A DNA stretch of 4,213 bases from a virus. Its lineage: Duplodnaviria > Heunggongvirae > Uroviricota > Caudoviricetes. The position numbers were made by a program, and so were the translations under genes. Positions within the stretch are counted from its first letter, which is position 1. Each line of letters opens with the position of its first letter. The notes beneath the pieces are model-generated. The model saw nothing but the letters and a program-made list of their open reading frames with translations, did not search any database and had not been told where the DNA came from. Of the stretch, positions 2,251 through 3,160 are shown piece by piece. Location: positions 1 to 4,213 of the IMG/VR virus record IMGVR_UViG_2654587728_000002. One strand, written 5' to 3'.

Positions 2251-2883
2251 ATGACCACTATTACCAGAGAACAGGCACAGAAAATTATTGAAGCAGCCGA
2301 TGAGGTTATTAGTGCGCTTGCCGGAACTAACGAGGATGTTCACCCTGGTAGCGATAACATGCTACGCCTGTGGGATGACCTGAATGACCGTTACGCGCCC
2401 CCTGAAGTTGTGCGTGAGCTGGCACGAATTGCACTGGCATCACTGGAAGCAGAGCCTGTAAGCCAAACTTACAACTTGCCAGAATTAATCGAAGGGATGG
2501 AAGTTTCCATTGATGTAAGCACTTGTGATGCTGATTTAGGTAATCGCTATTTCGGTACCGTCACCGAGGCGTTAGAACTTGATACAGCCAAGAATGGTTA
2601 CATCCTCCTAGTTCAGGACGCAGAGCCAAACTTCGATGTAAATGGCAACTCTCCGGTAATTCCGGGCGGTTGGATAAGCTGTAGTGAGCGAATGCCGGAT
2701 AGCAAAACAGCCGTTCTTGTTGCCAGGGAGTTTGACAGGAAAGGTGACTGGCGAATGAAATGGGCGACTTACATCCCGGGGCATCCTGACGCTAATGATG
2801 GGTGGGTAATACCTGGTGCGTCGTGGATACCATCACACTGGATGCCGCTACCAGAACCGCCGCAGGAGGTTAACCATGGCTAA
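2251..2883 (+). CDS. Phage protein with a DUF551-like C-terminal domain, 210 aa
   Basis: Track ORF. The C-terminus GGWISCSERMPD...WVIPGASWIPSHWMPLPEPPQ matches my recollection of the DUF551 signature (W-x-C-SERxP ... HWMPLPEPP). The N-terminal module is paralogous to the 1646 gene. Its stop overlaps the next start (ATGGCTAA). Confidence 0.65.
   Translation: MTTITREQAQKIIEAADEVISALAGTNEDVHPGSDNMLRLWDDLNDRYAPPEVVRELARIALASLEAEPVSQTYNLPELIEGMEVSIDVSTCDADLGNRYFGTVTEALELDTAKNGYILLVQDAEPNFDVNGNSPVIPGGWISCSERMPDSKTAVLVAREFDRKGDWRMKWATYIPGHPDANDGWVIPGASWIPSHWMPLPEPPQEVNHG
2419..2449 (+). repeat. 31-bp direct repeat, copy 2
   Basis: See copy 1. In addition, the first 17 nt of the two genes (ATGACCACTATTACCAA/GA at 1646 and 2251) are near-identical. 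Confidence 0.7.
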
Positions 2884-3160
2884 CCTGCAACTTGCCGTCA
2901 AAGGTGAATACTTCGATGCCATGATTCGCGGGGAGAAAACGGAAGAGTATCGCCTGTGTAATGACTACTGGAATAAGCGAATTATGTTCCGGGAGTATGA
3001 CCGACTGATTCTCACAAAGGGATATCCGAAGCGCGACGATTCCAGTCGCAGAATAGACGTCCCGTATGAAGGGTATGAAATCAAGACAATCATACATCCA
3101 CACTTCGGTGATAAACCGGTAAAGGTGTTCGCGATAAAGGTGAATACCGGCAATGAATAA
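2876..3160 (+). CDS. ASCH/PUA-like (DUF3850-type) domain protein, 94 aa
   Basis: ATG at 2876 inside track ORF 2816..3160, with GGAGG (2864-2868) upstream. The N-terminus LQLAVKGEYFDAMIRGEKTEEYR fits the ASCH-type pattern (hydrophobic strand, YFD-x-I-x-x-G-x-KT-x-E-x-R). It sits where ea8.5 sits in lambda, but I do not assert homology to Ea8.5. Confidence 0.55.
   Translation: MANLQLAVKGEYFDAMIRGEKTEEYRLCNDYWNKRIMFREYDRLILTKGYPKRDDSSRRIDVPYEGYEIKTIIHPHFGDKPVKVFAIKVNTGNE

What the first reader, a model, noticed from the sequence alone, without database searches (positions are those of the whole stretch)
2251..3160. Translationally coupled DUF551-like and ASCH/PUA-like gene pair next to xis
The DUF551-like gene's stop overlaps the ASCH-like gene's start (ATGGCTAA), which implies co-expression. 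ASCH/PUA-like folds are typically RNA- or modified-nucleotide-binding, while DUF551 has no assigned function. A coupled pair of this kind in the highly variable region between the recombination genes and xis/int is where phages carry host-takeover, superinfection-exclusion or anti-defence cargo. Function is unknown; this is a candidate only.
Basis: partly seen in the sequence, partly recalled or inferred. Interest (0 to 1): 0.5.

Follow-up and report, generated by a model that had tools for sequence, protein, structure and literature searches.

The report
Adjacent DUF551 and ASCH prophage genes
Two small, already-annotated accessory genes of unknown function sit next to each other in an E. coli prophage, but they are separate shuffling modules rather than an obligate pair, so the finding is largely ordinary.

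Summary
A 210-aa gene (2251-2883) ends in a DUF551 domain (Pfam E=1e-20). Its TAA stop overlaps the ATG of a 94-aa gene (2876-3160) in ATGGCTAA, and a strong AGGAGG lies 6 nt upstream of that ATG. The 94-aa protein falls below Pfam's ASCH threshold. However, a confident AlphaFold model (pLDDT 87) matches ASCH structures best, and the ASCH motif GxKxxExR is invariant in its family.

The window is the early-left accessory region of a P22-like prophage, 99.9% identical to E. coli E2348/69, where both genes already carry these names.

The functional-pair idea is only weakly supported. The stop codon sits inside ASCH codons 2-3. The ribosome-binding site lies in a ~20-nt linker that travels with the ASCH gene. 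The same cassette (linker, ORF, double terminator) follows DUF4752, DksA/TraR zinc-finger, Ea22 and Lar genes.

- DUF551 is directly upstream in 29 of 83 close loci.
- It is directly upstream in 3 of 80 one-per-species loci.
- The ASCH gene is in 1466 of 5426 complete E. coli genomes; this exact pair is in 8.

One residual signal remains: where both genes occur they are always within 0.7 kb, in either order. Function is still unknown. It is most likely a nucleotide/RNA-binding ASCH protein next to a protein carrying a portable, hypervariable adaptor domain.

The parts
2251..2883 (+). EaA-family mosaic gene, 210 aa, ending in a DUF551 domain. Its own SD GAGG is at 2239-2242.
   Evidence: PF04448, E=1e-20; phrog_60; RefSeq WP_000208133.1 'DUF551 domain-containing protein'.
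2251..2457 (+). N-terminal helical module (aa 1-69). It is one of at least three alternative N-modules in close relatives. It ends in the conserved ELARIALASLEAEP.
   Evidence: Alignment A5. Helices in the AF2 model are low confidence. It is paralogous to the N-terminus of ORF 1646-2041.
2455..2667 (+). Middle module (aa ~69-139), invariant among the nearest relatives, with no family assignment.
   Evidence: Alignment A5. No Pfam hit. AF2 pLDDT is about 28 here.
2668..2865 (+). DUF551 domain (aa 140-205). It has conserved flanks GWISCSERMP and HWMPLPEPP and a hypervariable core.
   Evidence: Pfam stretch 140-205. Alignments A5 and A6.
2864..2869 (+). Shine-Dalgarno AGGAGG for the ASCH gene, encoded within codons for ...P-Q-E-V of the DUF551 protein.
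   Evidence: Read directly from the sequence. It is conserved in front of the ASCH gene behind both DUF551 and non-DUF551 genes.
2876..2883 (+). 8-nt stop/start overlap ATGGCTAA. The TAA of the upstream gene lies in ASCH codons 2-3 (GCT AAC).
2876..3160 (+). Stand-alone ASCH-fold gene, 94 aa (phrog_625).
2930..2953 (+). ASCH signature GxKxxExR (G19, K21, E24, R26), placed between helix 1 and strand 2.
   Evidence: Invariant or nearly invariant in A1, A2 and A7. The position matches the motif described for ASCH structures (PMC6803910).
3162..3223 (+). Two tandem terminator-like hairpins, each followed by a T-run, directly after the ASCH stop. They form the 3' end of the ASCH cassette.
   Evidence: z = -4.3. 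They are conserved behind the ASCH gene in most close loci whatever the upstream partner. A terminator is annotated at the same place in phage MG40.
1646..2041 (+). 131-aa ORF that carries a second copy of the EaA-type N-module (MTTITKE..., ELARIALASLEVEP) without DUF551. It is a recombination relic flanking the locus.
   Evidence: RefSeq marks 1646-1774 as a partial pseudogene.

Best explanation
These are two neighbouring but independently assorting accessory ('ea' region) genes. They lie in the long leftward early operon of a P22-like/lambdoid prophage.

**Shown**
- Both genes are co-oriented with abc2, ea22, xis and int. No promoter-like site lies between them on the + strand.
- The ASCH gene starts 8 nt before the DUF551 gene ends and has a strong SD 6 nt upstream. 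It can therefore be translated by direct initiation and by ribosomes terminating on the upstream gene.
- The junction belongs to the ASCH cassette. The stop codon is embedded in ASCH codons 2-3. The SD sits in a ~20-nt linker (CCGCAGGAGGTTAACC) that stays with the ASCH gene when the upstream gene changes. Two terminator hairpins close the cassette.
- Recombination at these conserved joints, and at the conserved DUF551 flanks, places the cassette behind many different genes.

**Inferred**
- The 94-aa protein is a minimal ASCH-fold protein. Its conserved cavity (G19/K21/E24/R26, probably with Y50, D55, H74, H76) binds a nucleotide or base moiety, most likely in RNA, and may cleave or hydrolyse it.
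- It is not a YqfB-type amidohydrolase.
- The DUF551 protein is a three-module mosaic. Its C-terminal domain is a portable adaptor with fixed ends and a hypervariable core, and most likely acts as a binding module.
- The two proteins do not need each other.
For: **Context**
- The window is 99.9% identical to the E2348/69 prophage next to ybhC, where the genes are annotated DUF551 and ASCH.
- Neighbours are abc2, DUF2737, Ea22-like, excisionase and lambda-type integrase.
- There is no + strand promoter-like site, and terminators follow the ASCH gene.

**ASCH fold**
- AF2 model pLDDT 87.3.
- GxKxxExR is invariant and sits at the alpha1-beta2 position described in PMC6803910.

**Independence**
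- Upstream partners among 60 distinct proteins at close loci: DUF551 23, DUF4752 15, zf-DksA/TraR 5, Ea22 4, dATP/dGTP pyrophosphohydrolase 2, Lar 1.
- Only 2 of 74 upstream proteins in one-per-species loci have DUF551.
- Per locus, DUF551 is directly upstream in 29/83 and 3/80.
- The identical linker and overlap occur behind non-DUF551 genes. The terminators are conserved.
- 40 of the 120 nearest DUF551 clusters have the junction tail QEVN[RHG]G; the others end QEAK, QEVK or QEAKRWM.
- No phage record covers 80% of the 910-nt pair. The pair is in 8 complete E. coli genomes, against 1466 for the ASCH gene alone.
- The DUF551 family has at least 7979 clusters, against 586-1748 for the ASCH-like family.
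- DUF551 is described as a portable domain in PMC10834534.
Against: - No biochemical function has been shown for either protein. RNA or nucleotide binding is inferred only from fold and motif.
- The DUF551 fold could not be modelled (pLDDT 41).
- Where ASCH and DUF551 are both present they are never more than about 0.7 kb apart. They are directly adjacent in at least six lineages and in both gene orders: Jerseyvirus and Klebsiella phage MK54 have ASCH then DUF551. That is more than a naive random-position model predicts and could reflect a functional link.
Confidence: 0.6

Rival explanations
1. The two genes form a real two-component module. The hypervariable DUF551 domain would target or regulate, and the ASCH protein would act on a nucleic acid or nucleotide. 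Selection would keep them adjacent and co-translated.
For: - Adjacency recurs in both orders. DUF551 then ASCH occurs in lambdoid prophages, an Enterobacteriaceae genome (L086), Brucella (L119) and a metagenomic virus (L192).
- ASCH then DUF551, with an ATGA overlap, occurs in virulent Jerseyviruses and in Klebsiella phage MK54.
- All 14 DUF551 genes found within 3 kb of the ASCH gene outside the close set lie within 0.7 kb, and 9 are adjacent.
- In 61 of 83 close loci a DUF551 gene lies within 1 kb upstream.
Against: - 142 of 156 loci outside the close set have no DUF551 within 2.5-3 kb.
- 32 close loci have another gene inserted between the two.
- Many DUF551 core subtypes sit next to the same ASCH gene.
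- No ASCH-DUF551 fusion appears among 150 cluster representatives.
- DUF551 is roughly ten times more abundant and is fused to many unrelated N-terminal modules.
- Accessory genes cluster anyway, so the random-position null is too generous.
Confidence: 0.2
2. One or both genes are anti-defence or superinfection-exclusion cargo of the prophage.
For: - They lie in the variable early accessory region beside abc2 (anti-RecBCD).
- In other loci the ASCH cassette sits behind Lar restriction-alleviation genes and MazZ-like pyrophosphohydrolases.
- The hypervariable DUF551 core would fit an arms-race surface.
Against: - No direct evidence exists.
- PADLOC models gave no hit, though that library covers defence systems rather than anti-defence.
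- No paper in the searched library assigns such a role to DUF551 or to phage ASCH proteins.
- The ASCH gene is also carried by virulent phages and by prophages of many Proteobacteria, which fits a general housekeeping-type accessory function equally well.
Confidence: 0.2
3. The ASCH protein is an enzyme of a characterised ASCH type. It would be either a YqfB-like N4-acetylcytidine amidohydrolase or a ZmASCH-like single-strand RNA nuclease.
For: - K21 and R26 coincide with YqfB catalytic residues.
- The conserved HPHFG and D55 could bind a metal, as ZmASCH requires (PMC6803910).
Against: - The YqfB nucleophile Thr24 is an invariant Glu here.
- Sequence identity to both is 12-17%.
- The protein is shorter than ZmASCH and lacks its extra elements.
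Confidence: 0.12

Closest known systems
ASCH domain superfamily (Pfam PF04266, PUA-like clan), e.g. E. faecalis 3IUW, P. horikoshii PH0355 2Z0T, E. coli YqfB, Z. mobilis ZmASCH, human EOLA1/TRIP4
   Same: - The predicted small beta-barrel has a helix between strands 1 and 2.
- GxKxxExR sits at the same place (G19, K21, E24, R26).
- The best structural matches are ASCH proteins.
   Different: - The Pfam score is below threshold.
- At 94 aa it is at the minimal end of the family.
- It has its own conserved GYP and HPHFG motifs.
- It lacks the YqfB Thr24 nucleophile.
- No activity is known.
DUF551 (PF04448) proteins: P22 EaA, HK620 HkaE, E. coli CPS-53 YfdS, Ea22 variant 2 of Stx phages
   Same: - The C-terminal domain matches over its full length at E=1e-20.
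- The organisation is mosaic, with the domain at the C-terminus.
- The location is the early region of temperate enterobacterial phages.
   Different: - This particular N-module and middle-module combination is rare.
- YfdS has reported links to oxidative-stress tolerance and to suppression of replication over-initiation (PMC4776307, PMC10834534). Nothing is known for this protein.
Mosaic gene cassettes of lambdoid phages joined at conserved gene-boundary sequences (nin and ea regions)
   Same: - Short conserved linkers at gene ends carry the SD and overlapping stop/start codons.
- The same cassette is found behind different neighbours.
   Different: This is not a classical moron. No promoter of its own was found, only terminators.

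Membership tests
ASCH domain superfamily | Beta-barrel core with a helix inserted between strands 1 and 2 (PUA-like fold). | tested here: met
ASCH domain superfamily | GxKxxExR motif in the alpha1-beta2 region lining the cavity. | tested here: met
   G19, K21, E24 and R26 are invariant or nearly invariant in A1, A2 and A7. The motif definition comes from PMC6803910.
ASCH domain superfamily | Score above the Pfam PF04266 gathering threshold. | tested here: not met
   13.9 bits against 21.2. Only 2 of 36 diverse relatives reach E<0.01. A profile search of PDB sequences found nothing.
ASCH domain superfamily | Binding of RNA, DNA or nucleotide in the cavity. | not testable with these tools
   Requires purified protein.
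YqfB-type N4-acylcytidine amidohydrolase | Catalytic Lys21, Thr24 (nucleophile), Arg26 and Glu74. | tested here: not met
   K21 and R26 are present, but position 24 is an invariant Glu. The residue list comes from PMC9599836.
DUF551 (PF04448) | Full-length match above the gathering threshold. | tested here: met
   74.8 bits against 22, profile positions 1-68 of 68.
DUF551 (PF04448) | A defined three-dimensional fold. | tested here: inconclusive
   AF2 mean pLDDT is 41.4, so no fold search was run. The PDB profile search was empty.
Translationally coupled gene pair | Overlapping stop and start, with the SD inside the upstream ORF. | tested here: met
   ATGGCTAA at 2876-2883 and AGGAGG at 2864-2869.
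Translationally coupled gene pair | Downstream translation depends on upstream translation, for example through an SD sequestered in structure. | tested here: inconclusive
   A small hairpin covers the SD and start codon, but the region folds no better than shuffles (z = 0.41). A reporter assay is needed.
Conserved functional gene pair | The two genes co-occur and stay adjacent across lineages. | tested here: not met
   Directly adjacent in 29/83 close loci and 3/80 one-per-species loci. Absent in 142/156 loci outside the close set. A non-obligate association in both orders remains.
Moron (autonomous promoter-gene-terminator unit) | Own promoter and own terminator. | tested here: not met
   Terminator-like hairpins are present, but there is no + strand promoter-like site in the window.

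The most novel reading that the evidence does not exclude
ASCH and DUF551 may be two halves of a loosely linked phage module. In this reading, the DUF551 domain has fixed ends and a hypervariable core exchanged between phages. It would recognise a variable host or phage target. The ASCH protein would act on an associated nucleic acid or nucleotide, for example a modified base or a signalling nucleotide. This would explain why the two genes end up adjacent, in either order, in unrelated temperate and virulent phages.
Probability: 0.15. Interest if true: 0.6.

Novelty: already known. Interest (0 to 1): 0.2.

Why it matters
As it stands, this matters little. Both genes are already annotated members of known but uncharacterised families, and the overlap is the ordinary packing of phage operons.

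The useful outcome is a clearer map of the modules:
- an ASCH cassette (linker with SD, ORF, double terminator) that is present in about a quarter of complete E. coli genomes;
- a DUF551 domain whose conserved ends act as recombination joints around a hypervariable core.

If the weak ASCH-DUF551 association proved functional, it would give a first handle on two very common phage families with no known role.

Tried and rejected
**Searches that gave nothing**
- NCBIfam gave no hit for either protein.
- PDB sequence searches with the single proteins and with family profiles gave only noise.
- PADLOC gave no hit for either protein.
- Rfam found nothing above chance in the window.
- Literature searches for DUF551, PF04448/IPR007539, DUF4752 and 'ASCH domain' plus phage found no functional study of these phage proteins.

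**Structure prediction**
- The AF2 model of the full DUF551 protein failed (pLDDT 41), so no fold search was run on it.

**Locus retrieval**
A2 was used instead.

**Fusion (Rosetta-stone) evidence**
- There were no DUF551 hits among 150 ASCH representatives.
- There were no Pfam domains in 36 extended ASCH proteins.
- The long proteins P0241, P0242 and P0257 are deletion or read-through fusions with Ea22-like N-termini, not designed fusions.

**Ideas rejected**
- That a specific DUF551 subtype (GDWRMKWA type) tracks the ASCH gene. Many subtypes sit next to it.
- That the minus-strand ORFs 2870-3172 and 2965-3303 are genes. The + strand proteins are conserved across Proteobacteria.

Full report
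**What the window is.** The 4213-nt window is the leftward early accessory region of a P22-like/lambdoid prophage. Positions 1-3968 match the prophage next to ybhC in E. coli O127:H6 E2348/69, with two base differences (3011 and 3427). All convincing genes are on the + strand:
- abc2 anti-RecBCD (85-381);
- a DUF2737 gene;
- an Ea22-like gene (812-1450);
- several small ORFs;
- the DUF551 gene (2251-2883);
- the ASCH-like gene (2876-3160);
- a 55-aa ORF (3233-3400);
- excisionase (3440-3658);
- a lambda-type integrase, cut at 3968 by the end of an IS3-family element.

No sigma-70-like site was found on the + strand, so these genes read as one long operon. Terminator-like hairpins follow the ASCH gene and the 55-aa ORF.

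**Checking the observation.**
- The upstream ORF ends with TAA at 2881-2883. The downstream ORF starts with ATG at 2876. The shared octamer is ATGGCTAA.
- AGGAGG lies at 2864-2869, 6 nt before the ATG.
- DUF551 is confirmed: PF04448, 74.8 bits, E=1e-20, residues 140-205, covering the whole profile.
- The ASCH label is not confirmed by Pfam: 13.9 bits against a cut-off of 21.2, N-terminal 23 residues only. NCBIfam and PDB sequence searches also failed.
- Only 2 of 36 diverse relatives reach E<0.01 against the Pfam ASCH model.

**Testing the ASCH assignment by structure.**
- An exhaustive search of 50%-identity cluster representatives found 760 clusters. A profile search found 1748 clusters at 90% identity.
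- Alignments show an invariant or nearly invariant G19-x-K21-x-x-E24-x-R26, plus W32, R35, G49-Y50-P51, D55, G66 and H74-P-H76-F-G.
- AlphaFold2 with a 60-sequence alignment gave a confident model: pLDDT 87.3, pTM 0.73, with strand 2-8, helix 10-18, strand 23-27 and onward.
- Foldseek gave the same order, with 3iuw at probability 0.99 and TM scores around 0.45-0.56.
- GxKxxExR is the ASCH signature and sits in the helix 1 to strand 2 region lining the cavity (PMC6803910). That is where it lies in this model.
- I therefore accept a divergent, minimal ASCH-fold protein.
- It is not a YqfB-type amidohydrolase. The YqfB nucleophile Thr24 (PMC9599836) is an invariant Glu here.

**The DUF551 protein.** Alignment of the nearest relatives shows three modules:
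- The N-terminal helical module (aa 1-69) has at least three alternative versions. One of them is the N-terminus of the neighbouring ORF 1646-2041.
- The middle module (aa about 69-139) is invariant among close relatives.
- The DUF551 domain has conserved ends, GWISCSERMP and HWMPLPEPP. Its core is replaced wholesale between otherwise near-identical proteins.

The family is very large, with at least 7979 clusters at 90% identity. The literature describes DUF551 as a portable domain found on Ea22 variants, YfdS of prophage CPS-53, HTH proteins and MazZ-like pyrophosphohydrolases, with no mechanism known (PMC10834534, PMC4776307). AF2 failed on this protein (pLDDT 41.4), so its fold remains unknown.

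**Is the pair a unit?** I fetched three sets of loci:
- 80 viral contigs with a close ASCH gene (at least 90% identity) plus three reference loci;
- 80 loci from one genome per species (50-84% identity);
- 76 further loci from other phage lineages.

The results were as follows.
- The ASCH gene almost always overlaps an upstream same-strand ORF: 8 nt in 74 loci, 1 nt in 24 and 4 nt in 20, out of 156.
- The upstream gene varies. Among 60 distinct upstream proteins at close loci, 23 have DUF551, 15 DUF4752, 5 a DksA/TraR zinc finger, 4 Ea22, 2 a dATP/dGTP pyrophosphohydrolase and 1 Lar.
- Among 74 distinct upstream proteins in the species set, 2 have DUF551. The rest include cytosine methylases, HNH, Lar, RdgC, Mor and lambda P.
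- Per locus, DUF551 is directly upstream in 29 of 83 and 3 of 80.
- About 20 nt before the start (CCGCAGGAGGTTAACC, then A/GTGGCTAAC) are the same behind DUF551 genes and behind unrelated genes. The DUF4752 junction uses the same GTGGCTAA overlap. The TAA is simply the out-of-frame reading of ASCH codons 2-3.
- The two terminator hairpins after the ASCH gene are also conserved whatever lies upstream.
- Of the 120 nearest DUF551 clusters, 40 end in QEVN[RHG]G, the peptide encoded by the ASCH junction. The others end in QEAK, QEVK, QEAKRWM and similar tails that mark other downstream genes.
- No phage record covers 80% of the 910-nt pair; HK620-type phages share only the 5' and middle part, and HK022/Stx phages only the DUF551 domain plus the ASCH gene.
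- In complete E. coli genomes the ASCH gene is present at 80% coverage or more in 1466 of 5426. The whole pair is present in 8.
- No ASCH-DUF551 fusion exists among 150 representatives, and extended ASCH proteins carry no Pfam domain.

**The residual signal.**
- In virulent Jerseyviruses (Kenya-K2, ER7) the order is reversed. The ASCH gene is followed, with an ATGA overlap, by a stand-alone 69-aa DUF551 protein (Pfam E=1.4e-19).
- Klebsiella phage MK54 and a related contig also have ASCH followed by a DUF551-containing protein.
- DUF551 directly precedes the ASCH gene in a Brucella genome (L119) and a metagenomic virus (L192). It lies one gene away in Brevundimonas, Acidovorax, Brenneria and a P1-like phage.
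- Outside the close set, 14 of 156 loci have DUF551 within 2.5-3 kb. All 14 are within 0.7 kb, and 9 are adjacent.
- After collapsing to about ten lineages, six are adjacent. That exceeds a random-slot expectation of 12-30%. However, accessory genes cluster and the lineages are not fully independent.
- I read this as a weak, non-obligate association, worth about a 0.15-0.2 probability of a true functional link.

**Mechanism, with what is shown and what is inferred.**
- Shown: co-orientation, overlap, a strong SD, cassette structure, mosaic joints, the ASCH fold and motif, and the Pfam-level DUF551 assignment.
- Inferred: the ASCH protein binds a nucleotide or base moiety, most likely in RNA, in its conserved cavity and may process it. 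DUF551 is a binding adaptor under diversification. Translation of the ASCH gene is helped by, but probably not dependent on, upstream translation. A small hairpin covers the SD and start codon, but the region is no more structured than shuffles.
- The anti-defence idea is not excluded, but nothing here supports it beyond location.

**Verdict.** The genes are already annotated as such in RefSeq. The interpretation as a dedicated coupled pair is mostly not borne out. Interest is low. The reversed-order adjacency and the hypervariable DUF551 core are the only points worth a follow-up.

Noticed in passing
window 812-1447 (protein residues 101-199): The C-terminal half of the Ea22-like protein matches the PADLOC model PDLC02890 'DpdH' at E=9.3e-37. 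A phage Ea22 C-terminal domain therefore appears homologous to a component listed for the Dpd 7-deazaguanine DNA-modification defence island.
   Followed up: no
window 1646-2041 versus 2251-2457: ORF 1646-2041 carries a second copy of the EaA-type N-terminal module. The direct repeats are 1646-1665/2251-2270 and 1726-1785/2397-2456. It has no DUF551 domain. Close relatives of the DUF551 protein use exactly this N-module, and RefSeq marks 1646-1774 as a partial pseudogene. It looks like a recombination relic.
   Followed up: partly
window 3969-4213 (and int, 3636-3968): The integrase gene is interrupted after 3968 by the end of an IS3-family element, with a transposase C-terminus on the minus strand. 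E2348/69 has an intact int at the same place. This prophage copy is therefore probably unable to excise by itself.
   Followed up: partly
L164 3001-3482 (Salmonella phage Kenya-K2), L165 1577-2058 (ER7), L166 2501-3501 (Klebsiella phage MK54): In virulent Jerseyviruses and in MK54 the gene order is reversed. The ASCH gene is followed, with an ATGA overlap, by a DUF551 protein, which in Jerseyvirus is a stand-alone 69-aa domain.
   Followed up: yes
window 2668-2865; alignments A5 and A6: The DUF551 domain has nearly invariant ends (GWISCSERMP, HWMPLPEPP). Its core differs completely between proteins that are otherwise more than 95% identical. This suggests cassette exchange at the conserved ends or diversifying selection.
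   Followed up: partly
window 2876 and 2816-2875: Most relatives start the ASCH gene with GTG, whereas this window has ATG. The ASCH reading frame is open upstream to a GTG at 2816. Database proteins P0241, P0242 and P0257 are in-frame fusions or deletions joining Ea22-like N-termini to the ASCH body.
   Followed up: partly
window 2043-2240: A 65-aa ORF with two CxxC pairs (phrog_4173) gives weak zinc-ribbon, YnfU and Rad50 zinc-hook hits, all below threshold. It lies directly upstream of the DUF551 gene, and its TGA stop overlaps the next gene's SD.
   Followed up: no
window 3011 and 3427: These are the only two base differences from E2348/69 across 3968 nt. The one at 3011 changes ASCH residue 46 (Leu here, Ile in E2348/69 and most relatives).
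   Followed up: yes
window 3390-3409: A second strong terminator-like hairpin (GCCGCCTGATGGCGG followed by a T-run) overlaps the stop of the 55-aa ORF, just before xis. Together with the tandem hairpins at 3162-3223, this makes three terminators within 250 nt of an operon that must be read through to reach xis and int.
   Followed up: no
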